A DNA stretch of 64,000 bases, taken from NCBI RefSeq assembly GCF_044704955.1, contig NC_091998.1:63178001-63242000 (forward strand), in the 5' to 3' direction. A model generated the notes under the pieces. That model was not told the origin of the DNA. It saw only the letters and a program-made list of their open reading frames with translations, and did not search any database. Within the stretch, counting starts at the first letter, position 1, and every line of letters begins with the position of its first letter. Shown piece by piece: positions 1,611 to 60,560 of this stretch. The position numbers and the translations under genes are program-made. The stretch is from Pristiophorus japonicus (taxonomy: Eukaryota).

Positions 1611-2154
1611 TCTCACGGATGAACTTTTGTCACCTAACAGTTTTCACAAAGCAGTTTGCAGGCCATTTAACATGACGATTGGTGCATCTGTTGATTATCT
1701 TCCACCGCCCCTCCCCCGCTCTTCTATTTTTCCAACCTTACTAAAATGCCTGTTTAACCTCTCAGCCTTTAGTTTAAATTTGCTCACCGACCTGCTGTGT
1801 ATTTGTAGTTTATCCCTTTTTGATTTAACTCACTGAGCCAGGGGAGTGGTTGAGCATTAATCCGAAAGTGGAATTCAACGTATGGTATTTCAGGTAACGA
1901 TTAAAAGATTGAAAGCTAATTCATCAGAAAGTTCCTGGCCCCTAGTGATGAAGCAGGATTCTGTAATTTATGGCAATGAGTGATGAAAGCCACAACTGTA
2001 TTATCAACTATGACCAAGTCTATTGAGTCATGGAATCAAGTACCTACTGCTGGGAACTCCTGTTATATATAAACTAAAGCCAGATAATAACCCAGCACAG
2101 TAACAGTTGCGAATGGGTTGTTGGCTAGGGCCAAACGCCAGAATAACCACTACT

Positions 2155-2760
2155 AATCATAGAATCCTACAGCACAGATGGGAGTCATTCAGTCTATCGT
2201 GTCAGCTCTTTGATAGAGCTATCCAATTAGTCCCACTCCCCTGCTCTTTTCCCATACCCATGCAAATTTTTCCTTTTCAGATATATATTATACAGTATAT
2301 ATATATATCCAATTCCTTTTTGAAAGTTATTATTGAATCTGCTTCCACCACCCTTTCAGGCAGTGTGTTCCAGATCATAACAACTCGCTGTGTAAAAGAA
2401 TTCATCCCATGTCGTCTCTGGTTCTTTTGCCAATCACCTTCAATCTGTGGCCTCTCATTATTGACCCTGCTGCCAGTAGGAACGGATTTTCGTTAATTAG
2501 TCTATCAAAACCCAATACAATTTTCAACTCCTCTCTTAAATCTCTGTGCTCTAAGGAGAACAACCCCAGCTTCTCTAGTCCCTCCACATAACCGCAGTCC
2601 CTGGTACCATTCTGGTTAATCTCCACTGCACCCTCTCTAAGGTGTTGACATCCTTCCTAAATTGTGGTGCCCAGAACTGAACACAGTAGTTGGGGATTTA
2701 CAAAAAGGTTTAACATAACTTTCTTGCTTTTGTATCCTATGCCTCTATATATAAATGCTT
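2155..2760 (-). mobile_element. CR1 LINE 3' fragment
   Basis: [15 protein letters not shown]...RGHRLKV, with a catagaatc tail at the left end. Confidence 0.8.
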
Positions 2761-3118
2761 TCTCAGCTTTGTCCTGACACCTCCAAAAATTTGCGAACCC
2801 TTAAATGATGACCAGTGCCGACATAAATCATGGTGCCCCCTTAGATCGGGCAATGATGCACCTGGGGACCAGAGAAGGCAAAAGCTGGGGCGAATAAAAT
2901 TGAGACACGTGCTGAGAAAGCTGCACACCACTTTGAGATATGGATGTGACTTGTCAAAATCTACATGTAGGTCGTGGAGAGACAGAAACATTTCAGGCAA
3001 CCTCGAGTTCACATCTTCAAGGGCTTTGCTCAAAGTGCTGTGCGAAGGTACTCCCCTGTAACAGGACAGTGTTTCTTTGTCACCTCTAAACCGCACGCAC
3101 ACACACACACACAATCAC

Positions 3119-4442
3119 CTTTCTTAAACTCTTCCAGGACTGCGTCCAACTTCGTGTCGTTAAACACAAAATGCAGAGGGTGGTTGTAGAATTTGGTGAT
3201 GGTGTTCAAGGGTGTGCAGTCCTCGGGGTCCACCATGGCCAGATCTTTCACATACACTATATCTACGATGTTGGATCGCTCCTCTTCGTACACTGGGATC
3301 CTGGTGTAGCCACACTGCATAATCTGGGACATGGTGTTGAAATCCAGCACGGCGCCCGCGCTGAGCATGAAGCAGTCCTTCAGGGTGGTCATGATGTCCT
3401 CCACCACTTTAGTCCTCAACGCCCCCCGGCTGAACTCCTCCTTGACAAACTCGCGGTACGGGTCGCTGGACCGCAGCATGTTGAGGATCTTCTCGCGGAC
3501 GTAGCAGGTGCTGACGTCCTGCCGCAGCGCCAGGTCGAGGAACAGGGCGACGGGCAAGGCCAGGGGGAAGGCGGCGACCATGAAGAGGCGGGTCAGCCAG
3601 GTGGTCTTGGAGGCGACGGCGAAGCCGTAGCGCGAGCACACGGCGTAGGGCAGGATCTCGCAGAGCAGGAACAGCAGCGTGGCGCAGACCAGGACGGCGG
3701 GCAGGATGGCATCGAAGGCCAGGTAGAAGAGGACGCCCAGGGCCGAGTTGGCCAAGACGTTGCCCAGCACCAGCGAGCACAGCACCAGGTTGCCCCGCTT
3801 GCGGATGGGCTGCAGCGACTTGGCCCGCCGCTTCTCCCTCTCCGAGCCGCAGTGGTGGATGATGTGCAGCTCCAGCGGGTCGAGCCACAGGACGCTGAGG
3901 TGCAGCAGGTTGAAGAGGGCCGAGCAGGCCAGCAGGGCCACCGCCAGCAGGGCCTGGCCCCACACCGCCGCCGCCTCCTCCTCCTCTTCACCCCTCACCA
4001 CCACCACCACCTCCAGCGGCGTCCGCCAGCCGCCTGGCGCCGTCCAGCCGCCCCCTGCTCCCCGGGCGCACAGGTAATACAGGCCGAGGGCCCGGCCGGC
4101 CTGCACGCTGACCAACACCGAACCCTCCGCCTCGACGCCCGCCCCCGGCTCCGCCCCCGGCTCCGGAACCGGCCGCAGCCAGCCGCTGTCCAGGCTGCGG
4201 TTGTCGCACGCCAGGCCGCTGCTGAAGCCCAGCCAAGGCCAAGCCGCCTGCTCCAGCTCCCGCCCGAACACCCGGAGCTCGAAGCGGGCCCCGGCCTGGG
4301 CTCGGATCACCCCGTCACGCATGTGCACGCCGCCGCCGCCGCCGCCGCTCTCCAGCCGGGCCCCCCGCACCTCGGGCTGCCCGGCCGCTAGGCCCCACAG
4401 GGCGGCCAGCGCCCAGCACAGGCTCCGCGCTGCCGCCGCCAT
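3119..4442 (-). CDS. CNNM3: CNNM3-like metal transporter, coding exon 1 (remaining exons outside the window)
   Basis: aagATGG start, then signal peptide [24 protein letters not shown]21 and CBS. CNNM3-type signatures: shortened DPY..SRGALR linker, [30 protein letters not shown]. Donor AAA G|GTGAT sits at the same codon position as in the paralog. The CNNM4-then-CNNM3 tandem order matches mammals. Confidence 0.9.
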
Positions 4443-4620
4443 CTTGACTTTATCTCTCTCTCTCTCCCCTCCCCCTGTGGGAACACAACCAAACCCGCTG
4501 CCCCCGCCCCCAGGGCCGCTCCACCAATCACATACCGCATCCCCTCCCCGCCCCCCCCCCCCCCAGCCACCGGATTGACAGGCCGTTAGACCAATCATAT
4601 ACCTACTCTCCTCCTCCGCC
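3350..4620. promoter_or_regulatory. CpG island over CNNM3-like exon 1
   Basis: Visibly very GC- and CpG-rich compared with the CpG-depleted flanks. Confidence 0.85.
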
Positions 4621-5085
4621 ACCAATCATATACCTTGCTCTCCGCCCCCCACCCACCACAAGCCATGGGATTGACAGGCCGCTCCACCAATCATATATGT
4701 ACTCACCTCTCCAGCCACGCACGGGATTGACAGGCCGTTCCACCAATCACCAACCTTCTCGCCCCATCACCACAGGATTGATAGGCCGCTCCACCAATCA
4801 TATACCATGCCCTCCGTCCCCCCCCCTACCTGCCACGGGATTAACAGGCCGTTCCACCAATCACCAACCTTCTCTCCCCCCCCCCCATCACCACAGGATT
4901 GACAGGCCGCTCCACCAATCATATACCATGCCCTCGGCCCACCCCCTACCTGCCACAGGATTAACAGGCCACTCCACCAATCACGAACCTCCTCTCCCCC
5001 ATCACCACATGATTGACAGACCGCTCCACCAATCATAAACCTCATCCACCACGCACCCCCCCCCCCAGCCCACCGCCCAATCAGA
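4520..5085 (+). promoter_or_regulatory. CNNM3 promoter tandem array of GATTGACAG-N9-CCAATCA (TALE + NF-Y composite)
   Basis: Eight units begin near 4572, 4668, 4724, 4775, 4838, 4896, 4958 and 5010; the last is a perfect TGATTGACAG. Solo CCAATCA boxes lie at 4524, 4622 and 5077. Confidence 0.75.
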
Positions 5086-5822: not shown

Positions 5823-6576
5823 AATTATCGATTGGATTTATTAGTGACTATTTTATATTTATGGCCCCTCATTTTAGACATAAGAACTAGGAACAGGAGT
5901 AGGCCATCTAGCCCCTCGAGCCTGCTCAGCCATTCAAAAAGATCATGGCTGATCTGGCCGTGGACTCAGCTCCACTTACCCGCCCGCTCCCCGTAACCAA
6001 TAAGGGAATTAAGGGTTATAAATCTATCTATCTGTGACTTGAATACATTCAATGAGCCAGCCTCAACTGCTTCCTTGGGCAGAGAATTCCACAGATTCAC
6101 AACCCTCTGGGAGAAAAAATTCCTTCTCAACTCGGTTTTAAATTGGCTCCCCCGTATTTTGAGGCTGTGCCCCCTAGTTCTAGTCTCCCCGACCAGTGGA
6201 AACAACCTCTCTGCCTCTATCTTGTCTATCCCTTTCATTATTTTAAATGTTTCTATTAAATCATCCCTCATCCTTCTGAACTCCGAGTAAAGACCCAGTC
6301 TACTCAATCTATCATAAGGTAACCCTCTCATCTCCGGAATCAGCCTAGTGAATCGTCTCTGTACCCCCTCCAAGGCTAGTACATCCTTCCTTAAGTAAGG
6401 TGACCAAAACTGCACGCAGTACTCCAGGTGCGGCCTCACCAATACCCTGTACAGTTGCAGCAGGACCTCCCTGCTTTTGTACTCCATCCCTCTCGCAATG
6501 AAGGCCAACATTCCATTCGCCTTCCTGATTACCTGCTGCACCTGCAAACTAACTTTTTGGGATTCATGCACAAGGA

Positions 6577-7543
6577 GCCGGCGCCTCACAACTTGAGCCG
6601 CCTCGGGGAAATCCCCTCCGTACCTTTCAGTTCCGCGCGGAGGGGTTTCCTGTACGGGCTGCTCCTGCACACCCTCAACTTTGCCATCCTCGCCGGCCGT
6701 CCGGACACGCCATGGCGTACCATCTTGCCGTCCGGAGGAGGCGGGGGTCCCCGATGGAGGGCACTCTACGCAGGGGTCCTCCCACTATTCATCGGGGACT
6801 TGGCCTGGAGGGTGGTGCACGGAGCAGTGCCGTGCAACAAATTTTTAAGCCGGTTCACGGACTCCCAGGCCGCCTGCAATTTCTGCGGTCTGGAGGAGTC
6901 CGTGTTCCATGTTTTTATTGAATGCACGAGGTTGCAGCCCCTGTTCCACTATTTGAAGGGGCTGCTCCTGAAATTCTGGCTGCACTTCAGTCCCACTCTC
7001 CTGATCTTTGGGCACCCTGTGCGGAGGGGAGCGGGTAGGTCCGAAGGCCTCCTCGTAGGACTGCTCCTGGGCACGGCCAAGGGTGCCATCAGCCGGTCCA
7101 GGCAGCGGGCGGTCGAGGGGGTCGTTCAACCTGACTGCCTGCCTCTCTTCCGCTCTTACATCCGGTCCAGGGTGTCCTTGGAGATGGAGCACGCGGTGTC
7201 CACCGGTACGCTCGCGGCCTTCCGCGAGAGGTGGGCACCGGAGGGACTGGAGTGCATCATCACGCCCGGCAACCAAATTTTAATTTGATTTTACGTTTTA
7301 AAGTTAATTTGTTTTAATTGCCGGTGCTTTTAGTGTCCCCCTTCCCTTTTATAGGGGGCACTGGGGAAAAATTGTGAATTTAGTGCCCAAAAAAAACAAA
7401 AAGAAAAAAAAAGAAAAACAAACAAAAAAAAAACAAAAAAAAAAAGGGGGGAAAAAAAGGGCCTTGTAAATGTCTGGAGTGTCACCCAGGTCGGGTGGCA
7501 CCATTTAATGTTTTATGTTTTGCAGGTGAACTCCAAAAAGAGT
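6577..7543 (+). mobile_element. Tx1-clade non-LTR retrotransposon, 5'-truncated unit 1 (ORF2 C-terminus with zf-RVT CCHC, plus 3' UTR)
   Basis: Open frame to TGA at 7288 containing DLAWRVVHGAV and CNFCGLEESVFHVFIEC (C-x2-C-x7-H-x4-C). Flanked by ttcatgcacaagga at 6563-6576 and 7544-7557. Confidence 0.85.
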
Positions 7544-7557
7544 TTCATGCACAAGGA

Positions 7558-8496
7558 GCCGGCGCCTCACAACTTGAGCCGCCTCGGGGAAATCCCCTCC
7601 GTACCTTTCAGTTCCGCGCGGAGGGGTTTCCTGTACGGGCTGCTCCTGCACACCCTCAACTTTGCCATCCTCGCCGGCCGTCCGGACACGCCATGGCGTA
7701 CCATCTTGCCGTCCGGAGGAGGCGGGGGTCCCCGATGGAGGGCACTCTACGCAGGGGTCCTCCCACTATTCATCGGGGACTTGGCTTGGAGGGTGGTGCA
7801 CGGAGCAGTGCCGTGCAACAAATTTTTAAGCCGGTTCACGGACTCCCAGGCCGCCTGCAATTTCTGCGGTCTGGAAGAGTCCGTGTTCCATGTTTTTATG
7901 GAATGCACAAGGTTGCAGCCCCTGTTTTATTATTTGAAGGGGCTGCTCCTGAAATTCTGGCTGCACTTCAGTCCCACTCTCCTGATCTTTGGGCACCCTG
8001 TGCGGAGGGGAGCGGGTAGGTCCGAAGGCCTCCTCGTAGGACTGCTCCTGGGCACGGCCAAGGGTGCCATCAGCCGGTCCAGGCAGCGGGCGGTCGAGGG
8101 GGTCGTTCAACCTGACTGCCTGCCTCTCTTCCGCTCTTACATCCGGTCCAGGGTGTCCTTGGAGATGGAGCACGCGGTGTCCACCGGTACGCTCGCGGCC
8201 TTCCGCGAGAGGTGGGCACCGGAGGGACTGGAGTGCATCATCACGCCCGGCAACCAAATTTTAATTTGATTTTACGTTTTAAAGTTTAATTTGTTTTAAT
8301 TGCCGGTGCTTTTAGTGTCCCCCTTCCCTTTTATAGGGGGCACTTGGAAAAATGTGATTTTAGCGCCCAAAAAAAAAACCAAAAAAAGAACAAAAGAAGG
8401 AAAAAAAAAAAGGGGCCTTGAAAATGTCTGCTGTGTCACCCAGGCGGGTGGCACGGTTTAATGTTTATGTTTTTTTTCAGGTAAACTCAAAAGAGT
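7558..8496 (+). mobile_element. Tx1-clade retrotransposon, unit 2
   Basis: Near-identical ORF with stop at 8269, the same 5' start (gccggcgcctc) and a more diverged 3' UTR. Ends aaaagagt, followed by the 14-mer at 8497-8510. Confidence 0.85.
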
Positions 8497-9584
8497 TTCA
8501 TGCACAAGGAATCTAAAAGAGTTTCATGCACAAGGAACCCAAGGTCCCTCTGCACCGCAGCATGTTGTAATTTCTCCCCATTCAAATAATATTCCCTTTT
8601 ACTGTTTTTTTCCCCCCCCCACCCCACCCAAGGTGGATGACCTCACATTTTCCGACATTGTATTCCATCTGCCAAACCTTAGCCCACTCGCTTAACCTAT
8701 CTAAATCTCTTTGCAGCCTGTGTCCTCTACACAACCCGCTTTCCCACTAATCTTTGTGCCATCTGCAAATTTTGTTACACTACACTGTCCCGTCTTCCAG
8801 GTCATCTATGTATATTGTAAACAGTTGTGGTCCCAGCACCGATCCCTGTGGCACACCACTAACCACCGATTTCCAACCTGAAAAGGACCCATTTATCCCG
8901 ACTCTCTGCTTTCTGTTAGCCAGCCAATTCTCGATCCATGCTAATACATTTCCTCTGACTCCGCGTACCTTTATCTTCTGCAGTAACCTTTTGTGTGGCA
9001 CCTTATCGAGTGCCTTTTGGAAATCTAAATACACCACATCCATCAGTACACCTCTATCCACCATGCTCATTATATCCTCAAAGAACTCCAGTAAATTAGT
9101 TAAACATGATTTCCCCACAAATGGAAACATCTGTTTGTCTACCTTATCAACCCCATTATAATCTTTAGGATTTCTGTCAGGTCACCCCTCAGCCTTCTCT
9201 TTTCTAGAGAAGAGAGCCCAGCCTGTTTAGTGTTTCCTGATTCCTTCATTGCTGTGTGTGGTAGCTTGCTATTGCTTCCTACCTGACAACGGTGATAATT
9301 GTAAAGTACTTTATTGGCTGTAAAGCACTTTGGATGGCAGGAGAGGCGCTATAGAAATGCAAGCACTCTTTTCCCCAGGACCTCAGCACTACTGCGTGTT
9401 AACTTCATCATAGGCAGTCCCTCGAATCGAGGATGACTTGCTTCCACGTCAAGAAGTTCACAGGTGTTTCAATGAAGGACATAAAATTCCAGGTCCTGAA
9501 CTAAATCTTGACGGGGTGGAAGATGCCCGTGCGTGGATTTTTTTTTATAAACGTGTGGTGACCGTTGCACACCTGCCACCACAT

Positions 9585-11002: not shown

Positions 11003-14000
11003 CCTAGACTCAGTGGGTAAGCACACTCGCCTCTGAGCCAGAAGGTTGTGGGTTCAAGTCCCACTCGAGAAACTTGAGCACAAAATCTAGGCTGACACTC
11101 CAGTGCAGTACTGAGGGAATGCTGCACTGTCGGAGGTGCCGTCTTTCAGATTGGTCATTAAACCAAAGCCCTGTCTACTCTCAGATGGATATAAAATATT
11201 CCATGGCACTATTGAAGAGTTAAGGGTGTTCTCCCCGAATGTTTTGGCCAATGCTTATCCCCAGTACAACTCAGTTGCTGGGAAAATCCTGAAATCCATT
11301 AAGGAGAAAGTGGTAACAGTGCATTTAGAAAATCATCATTTGATTAGACAACATTCAACATGATTTTATGTATGTTTCCCCTGGCTGGAGGGTCTAGAAC
11401 TAGGGGATAAGGGACCGGCTATCTAAGACTGAGATGAGGAGGTATTTCTTCACTCAGAAGGTTGTAAATCTTTGGAATATTTTACCTTAAAGGGCTGTGG
11501 ATGCTGAATCATTGAGTATATTCAAGGCTGAGATAAGAGTTTTAGACTCCAGGTGAATCGAGGGATATGGAGATCGAGCGGGAAAGTGGAGTTGAGGTCA
11601 AAGATCAGTCATGATCTTATTGAATGGAAGAGCAGCTCGAGAGGCCGTATGGCCTACTCATAAACATAAGAACATAAGAATTAAGAACAGGAGTAGGCCA
11701 TCTAGCCCCTTGAGCCTGCTCCACCATTCAACAAGATCATGGCTGATCTGGCCGTGAACTCAGCTCCACTTACCCACCCGCTCCCCGTAACCCTTAATTC
11801 CCTTATTGGTTAAAAATCTATATATCTGTGATTTGAATACATTCAATGAGCTAGCCTCAACTGCTTCCTTGGGCAGAGAATTGCAGAGATTCACAACCCT
11901 CTGGGAGAAGAAATTCCTTCTCAACTCGGTTTTAAATTGGCTCCCCCATATTTTGAGGCTGTGTCCCCTAGTTCTAGTCTCCCCGACCAGTGGAAACAAC
12001 CTCTGCCTCTATCTTGTCTATCCCTTTCATTATTTTAAATGTTTCTATAAGATCACCCCTCATCCTTCTGAACTCCAACGAGTAAAGACCCAGTCTACTC
12101 AATCTATCATCATAAGGTAACCCTCTCATCTCCGGAATCAGCCTAGTGAATCATCTCTGTACCCCCTCTAAAACTAGTATATCCTTCCTTAAGTAAGGTG
12201 ACCAAAACTGCACGCAGTACTCCAGGTACGGCCTCACCAATACCCTGTACAGTTGCAGCAGGACCTCCCTGCTTTTGTACTCCATCCCTCTCGCAATGAA
12301 GGCTAACATTCCATTCGCCTTCCTGATTACCTGCTACACCTTTTGGGATTCATGCACAAGGACCCCCAGGTCCCTCTGCACCGCAGCATGTTGTAATTTC
12401 TCCCCATTCAAATATTCCCTTTTACTGTTTTTTGTCCCCCAAGGTGGATGACCTCACATTTTCCGACATTGTATTCCATCTGCCAAACCTTAGCCCATTC
12501 GCTTAACCTATCTAAATCTCTGCAGCCTCTCTGTGTCCTCTACACAACCCGCTTTCCCACTAATCTTTGTGTCATCTGCAAATTTTGTTACACTACACTC
12601 TGTCCCCTCTTCCAGGTCATCTATGTATACTGTAAACAGTTGTGGTCCCAGCACCAATCCCTGTGGCACACCACTAACCACCGATTTCCAACCCGAAAAG
12701 GACCCATTTATCCCGACTCTCTGCTTTCTGTTAGCCAGCCAATTCTCGATCCATGCTAATACATTTCCTCTGACTCCGCATACCTCTCTTCTATAGTAAC
12801 CTTTTGTGTGGCACCTTATCAAATGCCTTTTGGAAATCTAAATACACCACATCCATCGGTACACCTCTATCCACCATGCTCATTATATCCTCAAAGAATT
12901 CCAGTAAATTAGTTAAGCATGATTTCCCCTTCATGAATCCATGTTGTGTCTGCTTGATTGCACTATTCCTATCTAGATGTCCCGCTATTTCTTCCTTAAT
13001 GATAGCTTCAAGCATTTTCCCCACTACAGATGTTAAACTAACCAGCCTATAGTTACCTGCCTTTTGTTTGCCCCCCCTTTTTTTTTTTAAACAGAGGCGT
13101 TACATTAGCTGCTTTCCAATCCGCTGGTACCTCCCCAGAGTCCAGAGAATTTTGGTAGATTATAACAAATGCATCTGATATACCTTCCGCCATCTCTTTT
13201 AATACCCTAGGATGCATTTCATCCAGACCAGGGGACTTGTCTTCCTCGAGTCCTATTAGCCTGTCCAGCACTACCCCCCTAGTGATAGTGATTATCTCAA
13301 GGTCCTCTCTTCCCACATTCCCGTGACCAGCAATTTTTGGCATGGTTTTTGTGTCTTCCACTATGAAGACCGAAGCAAAATAATTGTTTAACGTCTCAGC
13401 CATTTCCACATTAAATCCCCCTTCTCATCTTCTAAGGGACCAACATTTACTTTAGTCACTCTTTTCCGTTTTATATATCGGTAAAAGCTTTTACTGTTTT
13501 TATGTTTTGCGCAAGTTTACTTTCGTAATCTATCTTTCCTTTCTTTATTGCTTTCTTAGTCATTCTTTGCTGTCGTTTAAAATTTTCCCAATCTTCTAGT
13601 TTCCCACTAACCTTGGCCACCTTATATGCATTGGTTTTTAATTTGATACTCTCCTTTATTATCCACGGCTGGTTATCCCTTCTCTTACCGCCCTTTTTCA
13701 CTGGAATGAAAGAGCTTCTTAAGTCCTCCACTGTTCCTCAATTGTGCCACCGTTTAGTCTGTGTTCCCAGTCTACTTTAGCCAACGCTGCCCTCATCCCA
13801 CTGTAGTCCCCTTTGTTTAAGCATAGTATGCTCGTTTGAGACACTACTTCCTCACCCTCAATCTGTATTACAAATTCAACCATTCTGTGATCACTCATTC
13901 TGAGAGGATCTTTTACTAGGAGATCGTTTATTATTCCTGTCTCATTACACAGGACCAGATCTAAGATAGCTTGCTCCGTTGTAGGTTCTGTAACATACTG

Positions 14001-18172: not shown

Positions 18173-19706
18173 ATACAAAAACACACAGGCTTGCCTGTGC
18201 TTCCCTGAAACAAGCCATTTAAGAAAATAAAAAGACCTATGGCTTCACTTCAATTGCTGCCGAGAATACACGTTTGGTTAATACTTCAAAATCCAATTCT
18301 CCAACCTTGAGGAAACAGCGAATCCAAAAATTGGGTTGGACCAGACATGCGAAGAGAACGCGATCGCTAGTTTCTGTCCTCGTCTGTTTGAATAGTTTGA
18401 GAACCTTTAATCCGCCTCCCTACCTCTCTCTCCACCACTGCCATCACCCACCCCCGCAAAGATCAATAAAAAGGCCAGTGACTTTGATAATGGACTAAAG
18501 ACCACCTGAGTTCTTGGACAACAATGCAGTGAGCTGCTGTTGGTTGAACTGCCACCTTGTGTAAAAGTACATCATGATCACAGGACGGGGGTTGAATTCT
18601 TGCCCGGGGGTGTGGGGAGGTTCCTGATCATCCACCGAAGAACCGCAGAGACTCTGAATAAAAAGAGTTAGGGGCCATTTCTTTGGGGTTTGAGAGATCT
18701 TCCGCCAACGTTCTAGTGGACGATGGGGAGATGCCCCTGGCCCTGTTACCATCTCAGGGCCGAGCGGAGACTGCAGTCGCCTGAAACCTTGGATCACCGA
18801 TTGGGAGAAGCTGAGCAGGCTTCCACGATACGTTAGATTAGCGTCAGCCTGAAGGGAAAAATGTTTCAGGGCTACAGGGGAAGTGGGACAAGCTGAAGTG
18901 CTCTTGCAGAGAGCCAGCATGGGGCTTGACAGGTCGAATGACCTCCTGCTGTGCGGTAACCGTTCTACGAATCTAGAAGTTGGTTCATTGAGCCATGTTG
19001 GGCTTTGCCTCAGGATAAAATGAAACCGTTAAAAGCAAGGAACCTCCAGTTGGAAAAACACCTCATTAGTCGCATTACCCCACGGTATAAATGGGGTAAC
19101 AATCTGGGCAATGCCACAGTAACAGCTTCCCTCACCTACAAATACAAAAAAGGAATCTGAGGGGAGAAAAAAAATCTCAGGGTTGACATGGTGGCTGGGC
19201 AGAAATTGGATGGGGTTTAATATTGCTGCACACCAACCCGAGGTGACGGTTGCAGCGCTGCCCAGCAACACACAGCCCTAACCTATCTGAGGCCGCCCAA
19301 GATTGCTCTCGACCAATGTACAAGTTAAAAGCTTGTCTTCGACAGCAAAGCTTCATTTGCCAGAAGGAAAATAAATGGCCATTGGACGACCGTGTCTTTC
19401 AATGGAGGTCTCGTCTTTCTTCCCCATAGTGTCTCCACAGCGGCGCTCCCCCAGTTAGTAATACATCAGACAGGATTCCTCTCTTTCCACACACTCAGAT
19501 CTACTGAAAAAAAGCAGAGAGTCTTCCCCATCAGGTCCCAAGTTGTTTCGTGTCGTGTTTTTTCCACTTTCCCTTACCCCCAGCACCCCCCCCCCCCCCA
19601 CCCCCAATCCCACACAATATTAAAGTTGCAGTGTTTGTTCACATAAACCATTGTTAATGCCCAAGTGCAGAGCCCAACACTCAGAGGACCAGGCCTCGAA
19701 GTGGGG

Positions 19707-57198: not shown

Positions 57199-58560
57199 GC
57201 ACAACCACACAGCAACCTGCACAAAGATAAAGCAAGAGCCAATTCCCTCAAAGAGATGCAAAACCACACAGCAACCTGCGCAAAACTAAAGACAAGATTC
57301 CCCCCAAACAAGATGCAACACAGCAACCTGCGCAAAAAAATAAAGCAAGACTTCCCCCCCCCCCAAAAAAGGAGATGCTCAACCACACAGCAACATGCGC
57401 AAAACTAAAGACAAGATTCCCCCCAAAAAAGATGCAACACAGCCACCTGCGCAAAAATAACGCAAAACTTCCCCCCATGAAAAAAAGCACAACCTCACAG
57501 CAACCTGCGCAAAACCAAAGACAAGATTCCCCCCAAACAAGATGCAACACAGCAACCTGCGCAAAAAAATAAAGCAAGACTTCCCCCCCCCCCCCCAAAA
57601 AAGGAGATGCTCAACCACACAGCAACATGCGCAAAACTAAAGACAAGATTCCCCCCAAAAAAGATGCAACACAGCCACCTGCGCAAAAATAACGCAAAAC
57701 TTCCCATGAAAAAAAGCACAACCACACAGCAACCTGCGCAAAACTAGACAAGATTCCCCACAAAAAAGATGCAACACAGCAAGTTGCGCAAATATCAAGA
57801 CTTTTCCCCCCCCCCCCCCCACAAAAAAGATGCACAACCACACAACAACCTGCGCAAAAATAAAGACAAGATTGCCCACAAAAAAGATGCAACACAGCAA
57901 GTTGCGCAAACATCAAGACTTTCCCCCCCCCCCACAAAAAAGATGCACAATCACACAACAACCTGCGCAAAAATAAAGACAAGATTGCCCCCAGAAAAGA
58001 TGCAACACAGCCACCTGCGCAAAACAATAAAGCAAGACTTCCCCCCCCCATGAAAAAAAGCACAACCACACAGCAACCTGCGCAAAACTAGACAAGATTC
58101 CCCACAAAAAAGATGCAACACAGCAAGTTGCGCAAATATCAAGACTTTTCCCCCCCCCCCCCCCCACAAAAAAGATGCACAACCACACAACAACCTGCGC
58201 AAAAATAAAGACAAGATTGCCCACAAAAAAGATGCAACACAGCAAGTTGCGCAAACATCAAGACTTTCCCCCCCCCCCACAAAAAAGATGCACAATCACA
58301 CAACAACCTGCGCAAAAATAAAGACAAGATTGCCCCCAGAAAAGATGCAACACAGCCACCTGCGCAAAACAATAAAGCAAGACTTCCCCCCCCCATGAAA
58401 AAAAGCACAACCTCGCAGCAACCTGCGCAAAACTAAAGACAAGATTCCCCACAAAAAAGATGCAACACAGCAATCTGCGCAAAACAATAAAGCAAGACTT
58501 CCCCCCCCCCCCAAAAAAAAAGATGCACAACCACACACAGAAATAAAGCAAGACTCCCCT
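57199..58560. repeat. ~40-45-bp C/A-rich minisatellite (aagatgcaacacagcaacctgcgcaaaactaaagacaagattccccc), ~1.4 kb; extra units at 56410-56487
   Basis: Seen directly; the source of the many Cys/Phe/Gly-rich pseudo-ORFs in the track. Confidence 0.95.
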
Positions 58561-58575
58561 TCCTTCCCCTCGCAC

Positions 58576-59691
58576 CTTGTTTGAACTCCTCCAGCATGGT
58601 GTCCAGCCGGGTGTCGTAGAAGACAAAGTGCAGAGAGTGGCTGTAGAACTTGGTGATGGTCTTGAGCGGGACGCAGTCGTCGGGGTCGACGAAGGCCAGG
58701 TCCTTGACGTAGAGGATGTCGACGATGTTGGACTTCTCCTGCTCGTAGACCGGGATGCGGGTGTAGCCGGTCTCCATGATCTGCGACATGGTGCCGAAGT
58801 CCAGCGTGGCGTCGCTGCCGACCATGAAGCAGTCGTGGATGGGGGTCATCACGTCCTCCACCGTCTTGGTGCGCAGCTCCAGCGCGCCCTGCACCATGTT
58901 GAGCTCGTCGGCGCCCAGGCCGGTGCGCGGGCCCGTCACCCGCAGCATCTCCAGCAGCTTGTCGCGGCCGTACACTTTGCCCAGCTCCTGGCCCAGCAGC
59001 AGGTCGAGCAGCCGGCTGACGGGGTACGACAGCGGGAAGGTGAGCAGCATGAAGAGGCGGGTCAGCGCGATGGTGCGCGCGCCCACCGCCAGGCCGTGGC
59101 GCGAGCACAGCGCCTGCGGCACGATCTCGCCCAGCAGCACGATGCCGCCCGTCGACACCGCCACCGTCAGCCAGCCCGAGCCCACCAGGCCGTCGAGCAG
59201 CACGGTCAGCGTGGTGTTGACCAGCACGTTGCCCAGCAGCAGCGAGCACAGCAGGTAGTTGCCCTGGCGCCGCACCGGCTCGATGGCGCGCGCGTACCGC
59301 CGCTCGGCCTCGGTGCCGCAGTTCTGCACGATCCGCAGCTCGGTCGGGTCGAGCGCCATCAGGCCCAGGTTGAGGCCGCTGAAGGTGCCCGACAGCGCCA
59401 GCAGCAGCGCCGTCACGATGATCTGCAGCCAGAAGGGCAGCAGCGGCTCGCCCTGCTCCAGCACCAGCAGGTGGGTGTCGTTGCCCGGGTGCAGCCGCCA
59501 AGCGACGCCGCCGCCGCCCGAGGATCCGCCGCCGCGGGTGCACAGGCCGTAGAGCCTCGACGCTTCGTTTTTGCGCAGCCGCTTGACCAGCAGCGTCAGC
59601 ACGCCCGACGTGCGGCGGTCCAGCTCGGTGCGACGCTGCACCTCGATGTCGCGCGAACGCCGCTGGCACGTCTCGTTCGTCTCGTTCGCCT

Positions 59692-59722
<31 letters not shown>

Positions 59723-59983
59723 CTCAGGCGCCAGCTCGACGAACGCCACCCGGCTCCAGGTCGCGGCGTCGAGGTCGCGGCCGAACACCCGCAGCCGCAC
59801 CGTCCGGCCCTCGGTCACCCGCAGCGTGTCGCTGTCGCCGGCCTCGGCCCCGCCGCCGCCGCCGCCGCCGCCGCCCCCCTCCAGCCGGATGCCGTAGATA
59901 CCCGAGTCCGAGGCGGCAATCGCGGCCTCCGCCTGCAGCAGCGCCACCAGCATATAGCAGCAGCCCGGCCGCAGCCTCGCCAT
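58576..59983 (-). CDS. CNNM4: CNNM4-like metal transporter, coding exon 1 (signal peptide, extracellular domain, DUF21/CNNM transmembrane domain, most of CBS pair)
   Basis: ATG in strong context (aagATGG) starts MARLRPGCC. Contains [57 protein letters not shown]. Ends EEFKQ-G at donor CAAG|GTGCG (phase 1). The track ORF 58433..60091 overruns both ends. Confidence 0.95.
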
Positions 59984-60560
59984 CTTCTGACATGAGCGCG
60001 CCGGGGGGGGGGGGTGCCTCCTCCCACTCCCTCTCCCGCTCCCGCCGCCCGGGGCACCTTTCGTCAGCCCGCCTTCCCTCACCCGCTCCATTGGACGCCG
60101 CCTCCTGTCAATCAGGACATCACCCGCTCCATTGGACGCCGCCTCCTGTCAATCAGGTCACCACCCCGCCCTGCCATTGGCCGCAGGCGCCCACCGTGCG
60201 TGCTCCAGCCAATCATCCGCCTCTCCCTCGACCTCTACCCCGGCCCCCCCCCCCCGCCTCCCCTTCCCATTGAACGACGCCGCCTGCCAATCAGGACTCT
60301 CCCGCCCTTCCCATTGGTCGCGCTCCAGGCACCCAATTGAAACCCCAGCCTGCTTTCTGGGCTTGCCTTTCATTGGTGGCTTCCGCTTGCCTTTTCAGGA
60401 ATGGGAGGCCAAAGTCAGCCGTGATTTGCTGTTCCATTTTCACTCAGCGAGCTGCTATTGGCTATCGGCGCTCGGGGGGACCTTCTCACCAATCGGCGCC
60501 CAGAATGCCCCATTGGCGGCGGTTTTTGATTGGCCGGCTGCGCTGTCAATCAGACGGACC
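58600..60560. promoter_or_regulatory. CpG island over CNNM4-like exon 1 and promoter
   Basis: Dense CpG and (GCC)n runs; nearly all third codon positions are G/C. Confidence 0.9.
60088..60555 (-). promoter_or_regulatory. CNNM4 promoter cluster of TGATTGACAG-N9/10-CCAAT elements and extra CCAAT boxes
   Basis: On + strand ATTGG-N10-CTGTCAATCA at 60090-60114 and 60131-60155 (41-bp duplication), ATTGG-N9-CTGTCAATCA at 60529-60552, and a degenerate copy at 60269-60293. Confidence 0.75.

What the first reader, a model, noticed from the sequence alone, without database searches (positions are those of the whole stretch)
6563..8536. Tx1-clade retroelement stacked three times at one 14-bp site inside a CR1 LINE: candidate LINE-targeting hyperparasite
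Seen: the CR1 14-mer TTCATGCACAAGGA, single-copy in the empty sister CR1 near 12349-12362, occurs four times here (6563, 7544, 8497, 8523). These copies separate unit 1 (967 bp), unit 2 (939 bp) and a 12-bp stub (atctaaaagagt). All three units end in AAAAGAGT directly before the 14-mer. Known: the Tx1 clade contains many sequence-specific families (Xenopus Tx1L into a DNA transposon; others into U2, 5S, tRNA arrays or microsatellites), and re-insertion at a regenerated target produces TSD-separated tandem arrays. Inference: this family may specifically target a conserved site in an abundant CR1 ORF2, a target type I do not recall being described. The 12-bp stub is hard to explain by simple duplication and looks like an independent, extremely truncated insertion.
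Basis: partly seen in the sequence, partly recalled or inferred. Interest (0 to 1): 0.8.

Follow-up and report, generated by a model that had tools for sequence, protein, structure and literature searches.

The report
Tx1 LINE stacking inside CR1 LINEs
A young jumping gene in this shark-like genome lands mostly at one spot inside another jumping gene and piles up there, and each newcomer often borrows its front end from the copy already present, which gives a rare genomic view of how such elements finish inserting.

Summary
Observation confirmed, and targeting is real. The element is a young Tx1-clade LINE (ORF2 49% identical to Xenopus Tx1L). Of 15,677 3' ends, 11,123 are followed exactly by the CR1 motif, and about 20% of exact CR1 sites are filled. 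The stub is one of 1,031 short inserts, mostly 11-12 nt.

This recurs. In chromosome-1 arrays 13 of 20 truncated neighbours share a 5' junction, and full-length neighbours share their first 40-480 bases, then diverge. Arrays grow 5'-ward (20 vs 3, p=0.0005).

Best reading: re-insertion in front of a resident copy, with the new cDNA joined by homology to the resident's head. That step is inferred; duplication followed by replacement remains possible. Tx1 targeting of other transposons is published; I found no CR1 target. The scan earlier noted LINE-targeting and Penelope-targeting LINEs on other DNA.

The parts
5878..6562 (-). Host CR1-type LINE, 3' part (ORF2 C-terminus, 3' UTR, short terminal repeat)
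   Evidence: Aligns to the sister copy at 95.7%; ORF2 piece 64-74% identical to several cartilaginous-fish RT proteins and up to 83% to unnamed ones; terminal TTCTTATG repeat
6563..6576 (+). Target / TSD copy 1 (antisense of host codons within DLGVLVHES)
6577..7543 (+). Tx1 unit 1, 5'-truncated at about position 6240 of a 7,197-bp full-length copy; probably the younger unit
   Evidence: 97.8% identical to the full-length copy in L032; nearest copies elsewhere differ at 2 sites, unit 2 at 15
6577..7288 (+). ORF2 C-terminal remnant with zf-RVT zinc finger
   Evidence: PF13966 E=1.2e-5, below the curated cut-off; aligns to the Tx1L C-terminus
6622..6622 (+). Locus-private A (unit position 46), shared with unit 2 at 7603
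   Evidence: G in 105 of 105 other units; G at 99% of contig depth in run X2
7479..7501 (+). Conserved 3'-UTR stem-loop, candidate RT-binding signal
   Evidence: 8-bp consensus stem over 85 distinct tails; variation is mostly one-sided (C-G to U-G), with almost no two-sided change
7544..7557 (+). TSD copy 2
7558..8496 (+). Tx1 unit 2, same 5' junction, different body haplotype and tail; probably the older unit
8497..8510 (+). TSD copy 3
8511..8522 (+). 12-nt stub: terminal bases of a third tail variant
8523..8536 (+). TSD copy 4
8537..9116 (-). Host CR1-type LINE, 5'-ward part (RT domain), 5'-truncated
   Evidence: RVT_1 E=6.5e-12; alignment
12349..12362 (+). Empty target in the sister CR1-type copy (copy begins near 11660, - strand)

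Best explanation
SHOWN: A young, autonomous Tx1-clade LINE (7.2 kb; ORF1 plus APE-RT-zinc finger ORF2) inserts antisense at one site in the ORF2 of an abundant CR1-type LINE, about 690 bp from its 3' end, with a TSD of about 14 bp. It uses looser TTC(A) sites at lower frequency. Re-use of the site builds TSD-separated arrays in which the 3'-most unit tends to be the oldest. Neighbouring units very often share an exact, locus-specific 5' junction and their first tens to hundreds of bases, while bodies and tails come from different source lineages. INFERRED: the endonuclease nicks the bottom strand at the left edge of a TSD in front of a resident copy, and target-primed reverse transcription copies a new RNA. 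The cDNA then pairs with the homologous top strand of a resident copy lying just downstream, and the top strand is resolved inside that copy rather than 14 nt from the nick. Everything between the nick and the resolution point (TSD, resident's head, any short passenger units) is duplicated as one long TSD, and the rest of the new unit comes from the RNA. Without such pairing an ordinary new truncation results. Reverse transcription often stops after 11-12 nt, leaving stubs, or rarely jumps to U6 or pre-tRNA. In the window, unit 1 landed in front of unit 2 and took at least 46 bases from it; the switch lies before position 319.
For: Targeting: 11,123 of 15,677 tails are followed by TTCATGYACAAG, reversed-pattern control 0. 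Of the first 30 on contig 1, 24 are exact, 2 have one mismatch, and 29 begin TTCA. Filled 6,088 vs empty 24,152 exact sites. Shared heads: 13 of 20 adjacent pairs with a truncated right unit by script, 14 of 22 by hand, against about 1% expected even for the window's hotspot junction (130 of about 11,000). Full-length neighbours first differ at base 40 or later in 18 of 23 pairs vs 6 of 894 between-locus pairs; 12 of those 18 then differ at 35-91 sites in bases 500-2000, where the between-locus median is 80. Window: 6 of 7 coding differences are family polymorphisms; shared private A. Polarity: the rightmost unit has more private changes in 20 arrays, the leftmost in 3, with 9 ties (p=0.0005); contig-1 set 13 vs 2 of 20. 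In L042 and L120, TSDs contain the first bases of the right-hand neighbour, which fixes the order as right to left. Block duplications: short passengers differ by 1-2 substitutions (A-tract masked) while their long partners differ by 112-165 (contig 3) or 115 (contig 21). [TSD-stub-TSD-unit]x4 has one stub and one head but four tails. Precedent: R2 cDNA forms seamless 5' junctions by annealing with as little as 11 bp (PMC11331408, passages), and branched intermediates are cleaved for second-strand synthesis (PMC6895275, abstract and Discussion).
Against: No intermediate or biochemical test; the joining step is read from end products only. Of the 18 shared-head full-length pairs, 5 are nearly identical further on (0-4 differences) and one differs at 20 sites, and the 27-unit array has higher-order repeats, so plain duplication also acts. 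The window's junction is a genome-wide hotspot (130 hits; first 100 = 72 loci). By the private-change measure the window itself is a tie. In the contig-10 block the long pair differs at only 5 of 1,266 sites and one passenger pair at 4-6, which fits the model less cleanly. Some pairs share locus-private alleles well beyond their first difference, pointing to later conversion or a shared source. Pairs within an array are not independent, several arrays were cut at their left end, and 'private' rests on about 60 loci. Counts are inflated by segmental duplicates (4 of the first 30 tails).
Confidence: 0.62

Rival explanations
1. Two steps: a unit is first duplicated as DNA (slippage or unequal exchange at the 14-bp TSD), then one copy's body is overwritten by RNA-templated replacement or ectopic gene conversion.
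For: Explains shared heads and the shared private allele. Near-identical neighbours and higher-order repeats exist in arrays of three or more units.
Against: All 7 two-unit same-head arrays with both flanks in view (window included) differ at 14-171 sites and none is identical. Differences run to the 3' end in nearly all pairs. It does not predict younger units on the left.
Confidence: 0.2
2. One step in the opposite direction: nick after a resident, the cDNA invades the upstream copy and copies its head and TSD, so arrays grow 3'-ward.
For: Gives the same shared-head products. Internal and right-hand TSDs are used at times (a full-length unit between two same-head units; stubs after tails).
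Against: Age polarity 20 vs 3. TSDs that include the right-hand neighbour's first bases. Leftmost junction type repeated internally together with passengers.
Confidence: 0.08
3. Independent re-insertions with ordinary truncation; matching heads come from truncation hotspots.
For: The window's junction occurs 130 times genome-wide with 9 haplotypes among 19 aligned copies, at the base of a small RNA hairpin. 7 of 20 pairs do have different heads.
Against: The hotspot accounts for about 1% of junctions. Heads differ between loci but repeat within them. Locus-specific TSDs at off-target sites repeat with the head. Shared private allele. No general link between heads and upstream structure (p=0.52).
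Confidence: 0.06
4. Apparent targeting is hitchhiking: one CR1 copy carrying a Tx1 insert was amplified by CR1 transposition or segmental duplication, or the array is an assembly artefact.
For: Four contig-1 loci with the same 33-nt insert are 99% identical over 3 kb. Public contigs listed did not bridge the unit 1-unit 2 junction.
Against: 44 distinct truncated heads compiled. Host copies ranging from 79% to 95% identity to the window's sister are hit at the same site. About 1,000 stubs of several tail types. Units differ by real family polymorphisms.
Confidence: 0.04

Closest known systems
Tx1L of Xenopus laevis (Tx1 clade; target Tx1D, a non-autonomous piggyBac element; PMC4494074 and PMC1950540, passages)
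   Same: ORF2 49% identical over 1,297 aa, RT region 62%; APE endonuclease; site-specific insertion into another mobile element.
   Different: The target is a LINE ORF2 motif rather than a DNA transposon. The endonuclease loop carrying RDGH in Tx1L (a specificity element in PMC1950540) is three residues shorter here.
Crocodilian Tx1-Mar, Tx1-8_Crp / Tx1-4_AMi, Tx1-9_AMi and SINEU (PMC4494074, passages and part 3 of 5 of the text)
   Same: Tx1 families targeting Mariner, LTR and Harbinger elements, partly in opposite orientation; tandem insertions; snRNA heads added to Tx1 machinery.
   Different: No LINE target in the text read. Shared 5' junctions and polar arrays are not described there. Here U6 and tRNA chimeras are rare single events, not a SINE family.
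Double-insertion tandems, including R1 arrays (McGurk and Barbash 2018, PMC5932611, passages)
   Same: TSD-separated head-to-tail tandems made by insertion at the same site and later expanded by unequal exchange.
   Different: There, distinct 5' truncations are the sign of independent insertion (6 of 10 jockey dimers). Here independent bodies carry identical truncations.
R2 5'-junction formation by cDNA annealing and the 4-way junction model (PMC11331408 passages; PMC6895275 abstract and Discussion)
   Same: Homology between cDNA and target-site DNA dictates a seamless 5' junction and the place of second-strand resolution.
   Different: R2 is an RLE element annealing to upstream rDNA carried on its own RNA. 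Here an APE element would use a resident copy downstream of the nick, giving long duplications. PMC6895275 states it is open whether APE LINEs do this.
Zepp / ZeppL (PMC8226300, passages)
   Same: L1-like LINEs that target LINE sequence and build tandem arrays of 5'-truncated copies.
   Different: Zepp targets its own copies in one cluster per chromosome. This family targets a different clade's ORF2 at thousands of dispersed sites.

Membership tests
Tx1 clade | Two ORFs; ORF2 with APE endonuclease, RT and C-terminal zinc finger | tested here: met
   L032: ORF1 frame 702 aa (weak zf-CCHC), ORF2 frame 1,306 aa with Exo_endo_phos, RVT_1 and a weak zf-RVT match; 16 of 39 full-length copies keep both frames open
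Tx1 clade | RT groups with Tx1L rather than with L1 or CR1 | tested here: met
   49% identity over the whole ORF2 to Tx1L; human L1 ORF2p matches only residues 4-862. The tree places it with a stingray protein (99/97) in a group holding Tx1L at 84/87, not starred; human L1 was not a row
Tx1 clade | Sequence-specific insertion with TSD | tested here: met
Tx1 clade | Position relative to Keno, Mutsu, Dewa, Kibi, Koshi, Tx1-Mar | not testable with these tools
   No labelled sequences of these families were returned
CR1 clade (host) | APE-RT ORF2 related to vertebrate CR1 proteins | tested here: inconclusive
   Hits are cartilaginous-fish, bird and turtle RT proteins, none named CR1; far from the Tx1 group in the tree. 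The CR1 label rests on recall that these are CR1-clade proteins.
CR1 clade (host) | 3' end with short 8-nt terminal repeat, no poly(A) | tested here: met
   TTCTTATG repeat at the 3' end of both copies; that this is CR1-like is recalled
SINEU-like snRNA-headed SINE | Amplified family of snRNA head plus Tx1 tail | tested here: not met
   Only 2 U6-tail chimeras by exact pattern genome-wide
Zepp-like self-nesting LINE | Target lies inside its own sequence; one cluster per chromosome | tested here: not met
   The target is host-LINE sequence and loci are dispersed

The most novel reading that the evidence does not exclude
An APE-type LINE that parasitises a fifth of a CR1 subfamily's intact target sites and completes integration by homology-directed resolution inside a resident copy, so that thousands of loci are polar, time-ordered records of successive source RNAs (newest at the 5' side), with 11-12-nt abortive products marking a fixed early step of reverse transcription. 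More boldly, its 3' tail was captured from the upstream half of an ancestral CR1 target.
Probability: 0.5. Interest if true: 0.85.

Novelty: new variant of a known kind. Interest (0 to 1): 0.72.

Why it matters
How APE-type LINEs, the class that includes human L1, cut the second strand and join their 5' end is still open (PMC6895275, Discussion). This family offers thousands of natural products at one defined site, with marked parents side by side, so the second-strand step can be mapped from sequence and then tested in cells. It also undermines a common rule of thumb: tandem copies with the same 5' truncation need not be DNA duplicates. As a target, a conserved CR1 ORF2 motif near the 3' end is kept in many truncated copies and so gives tens of thousands of probably harmless landing sites. 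A CR1-directed site-specific RT-endonuclease extends the known Tx1 target list to another LINE clade. Whether it suppresses active CR1 copies, and so is a true hyperparasite, was not tested.

Tried and rejected
(1) Tail derived from the target: one tail variant matches the upstream half of an older host copy at 17 of 21 positions (score 9 vs a null maximum of 6 in 396 windows; best of 85 tails, post hoc). That host variant is single-copy even as a 20-mer, and the young host subfamily does not match, so this is left as speculation. (2) A single master for the window's junction: rejected, 9 haplotypes in 19 aligned copies; 1 of 20 dropped for an indel. (3) RNA structure as a general cause of truncation points: no signal over 44 heads (p=0.52). 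The window's hotspot sits at a hairpin base ranked 62 of 3,848 for 20-nt windows and 282 and 850 for 25 and 30 nt; the 201-nt region folds at z=-4.5. Suggestive only. (4) U6 chimeras as a SINE family: only 2. (5) Public runs: the element is held by four organism labels at a word share of 0.26 or more. Contigs of three other organisms show the empty site but no listed contig joined tail to target, and none bridged the array; this says nothing about targeting elsewhere or about the assembly. RNA runs held only 4-6% of the words, so expression is untested. (6) Literature: searches showed no Tx1 family inserted in CR1 and no account of shared-head arrays. Repbase and subscription journals are not covered, and the figure and supplements of PMC4494074 that list Tx1 targets were not seen. 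(7) Rfam found only U6 in L042, nothing in the window or L032. (8) The larger arrays sharing the window's junction were not read in full.
Full report
Observation. The 14-mer TTCATGCACAAGGA lies at 6563, 7544, 8497 and 8523 and once, at 12349, in a sister LINE. It separates units of 967, 939 and 12 bp, each ending in AAAAGAGT. The host flanks without the array match the sister at 95.7%. The window is contig 22 of a 5.9-Gb assembly; the closest named host-LINE proteins come from sharks and rays. The host is on the minus strand. The target is the antisense of codons in the motif DLGVLVHES, about 690 bp from the host's 3' end; a loose D/E-L/I/V-G-V/I motif is present in the last 330 residues of 115 of 120 related proteins. 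'CR1' is my recalled label: no hit was named CR1, but the terminal 8-nt repeat fits.

The element. A full-length natural copy of 7,197 bp (L032) has an ORF1 frame of 702 aa and an ORF2 frame of 1,306 aa with endonuclease, RT and zinc-finger matches. ORF2 is 49% identical over 1,297 aa to Xenopus Tx1L. In a tree of 18 RT regions it pairs with a stingray protein (99/97) inside a moderately supported group with Tx1L (84/87). Of 39 full-length copies examined, 16 keep both frames open, so the family is young.

Targeting. A tail pattern has 15,677 matches, control 0; 11,123 are followed exactly by TTCATGYACAAG. Among the first 30 on contig 1, 24 have the exact 14-mer, 2 have one mismatch and 29 begin TTCA; four of these 30 are segmental duplicates. 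For one exact 30-mer context, 6,088 sites are filled and 24,152 empty, about 20% occupancy. Off-target insertions read in full have their own 11-15-bp TSDs beginning TTC. Of nine non-standard flanks tested, two were the homologous site in older host copies, two lay elsewhere in host-like LINEs and five had no match. 5' truncations differ between loci, which excludes hitchhiking as the main cause.

The stub. There are 1,031 cases of TSD-short insert-TSD. Of the first 100 listed, 73 inserts are 11-12 nt and 81 are 10-14 nt. The window's stub ends like the GTAGACTCTAAAAGAGT tail variant, not like either neighbour. The same 11-12-nt tail is fused to a U6 copy (L042), a pre-tRNA-Asp (L120) and an unidentified stretch of about 190 nt (L131). 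U6 chimeras number only 2 by exact pattern. I infer a frequent stop after about 12 nt of cDNA, coinciding with the terminal ACTC...GAGT inverted repeat visible in the tails; this link was not tested.

Units 1 and 2 start at the same base. Six of their seven coding differences, and their tail differences, are polymorphisms seen at other loci. Unit 1's nearest relatives elsewhere differ at 2 sites, unit 2's at 7, and the two differ from each other at 15. Yet both carry A at unit position 46, where 105 of 105 other units have G (99% G in public contigs). So the head was copied locally and the bodies came from different sources.

To test generality I read 24 tail clusters from the start of contig 1, picked from the listings without regard to heads, plus 12 loci and the window. 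Where the right unit is truncated, 13 of 20 adjacent pairs share the exact head by script. By hand it is 14 of 22: one split alignment was miscounted as different and two different-head pairs were missed. The window's junction is a hotspot (130 matches; the first 100 fall in 72 loci, 15 of them same-head arrays) used by many haplotypes, but it makes up only about 1% of junctions. Adjacent full-length units first differ at base 40 or later in 18 of 23 pairs, against 6 of 894 between-locus pairs (median 8). Twelve of the 18 then differ at 35-91 sites in bases 500-2000 (between-locus median 80, 5th percentile 45), five are nearly identical and one differs at 20. One off-target array has eight consecutive same-head units with eight different tails, and another has 27 units with higher-order repeats.

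Direction. The rightmost unit has more locus-private substitutions than the leftmost in 20 arrays and fewer in 3, with 9 ties including the window (p=0.0005; contig-1 set 13 vs 2 of 20, p=0.007). In L042 and L120 the TSD in front of a unit includes the first 7-9 bases of its right-hand neighbour, which can only arise if the neighbour was there first. In alternating arrays the short passengers are near-identical (1-2 substitutions in 337 bp; 1 in 646 bp; 1 in 465 bp outside the A-tract) while their long partners differ at 112-165 or 115 sites; in the contig-10 block the long pair differs at only 5. One array repeats [TSD-stub-TSD-unit] four times with one stub, one head and four tails.

Mechanism. 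Shown: site-specific insertion, re-use of the site, polarity, and chimeric units. Inferred: after a bottom-strand nick in front of a resident copy and reverse transcription of a new RNA, the cDNA pairs with a downstream resident and the top strand is resolved inside it, so TSD, passengers and head are duplicated as one long TSD. This parallels R2, where cDNA annealing to as little as 11 bp makes seamless junctions (PMC11331408, passages) and a branched intermediate directs second-strand cleavage; that paper leaves APE LINEs open (PMC6895275, abstract and Discussion). The main rival is DNA duplication followed by replacement. It fits the shared heads and the near-identical pairs, but none of 7 two-unit same-head arrays is identical (14-171 differences) and it does not predict the polarity. 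Unequal exchange clearly expands the longer arrays afterwards. I put targeting at about 0.95 and the one-step joining model at about 0.6.

Comparison and novelty. Tx1 families targeting piggyBac, Mariner, Harbinger and LTR elements, U2 genes and microsatellites are published (PMC4494074, passages and part 3 of 5; PMC3747384, passages), as are TSD-separated tandems by double insertion, where distinct truncations are taken as the sign of independence (PMC5932611, passages), and self-nesting Zepp arrays (PMC8226300, passages). Ten searches showed no CR1-targeting Tx1 and no shared-head arrays. Repbase, subscription journals and the figure and supplements of PMC4494074 were not seen and could hold such a family. 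Unchecked notes from this scan report LINEs targeting other LINEs' coding sequence and Tx1 families targeting Penelope tails in other genomes; none matched this sequence or the shared-head pattern. Verdict: a new variant of a known kind. The target is a modest extension; the array anatomy is the part a specialist would find surprising and testable. Interest 0.72.

Noticed in passing
window 3030-4625 (-) and 58433-60148 (-): First exons of two tandem CNNM metal-transporter genes (Ig_CNNM4_N and CNNM domains). The array lies between them, about 2 kb upstream of the left one. The arrangement recalls human CNNM4-CNNM3 (from memory).
   Followed up: partly
window 4516-5060: Degenerate 52-63-bp tandem repeat with about nine CCAAT-containing copies just upstream of the left CNNM exon; possible promoter array.
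   Followed up: no
window 5994-6018: A short stretch of the host LINE is inverted relative to the sister copy (perfect 25-nt inverted match to 11788-11812).
   Followed up: no
L042:9637-9752: U6 snRNA copy fused to an 11-12-nt Tx1 tail at the CR1 site, with later Tx1 units stacked in front; a second U6-tail chimera lies off-target in L170.
   Followed up: yes
L120:7584-7691: Pre-tRNA-Asp with 3' trailer fused to a 12-nt Tx1 tail at the CR1 site.
   Followed up: partly
L131 (joined region C21, about 18450-18650): About 190 nt of unidentified sequence carrying the short Tx1 tail inside an off-target array; possibly a captured cellular RNA.
   Followed up: no
L037-L038: 27 units of about 440 bp at an off-target site with higher-order repeat structure: a satellite forming from a LINE 3' end.
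   Followed up: partly
L139, L140, L141, L143: Four loci in the first 3.3 Mb of contig 1 are 99% identical over the whole 3 kb read: segmental duplicates.
   Followed up: partly
L014, L157, L159: Odd junctions: a 5-nt tail remnant with no left TSD; a TSD extended by about 16 nt of host sequence; a doubled TSD.
   Followed up: no
full-length copies, bases 2000-3000: The ORF1 C-terminal region is far more divergent between copies (up to about 70 differences per 500 bp) than ORF2 (0-13), suggesting recombining ORF1 types.
   Followed up: no
window 7520-7543: The tail reads like a splice acceptor (pyrimidine tract, CAG/G); whether it is used is unknown.
   Followed up: no
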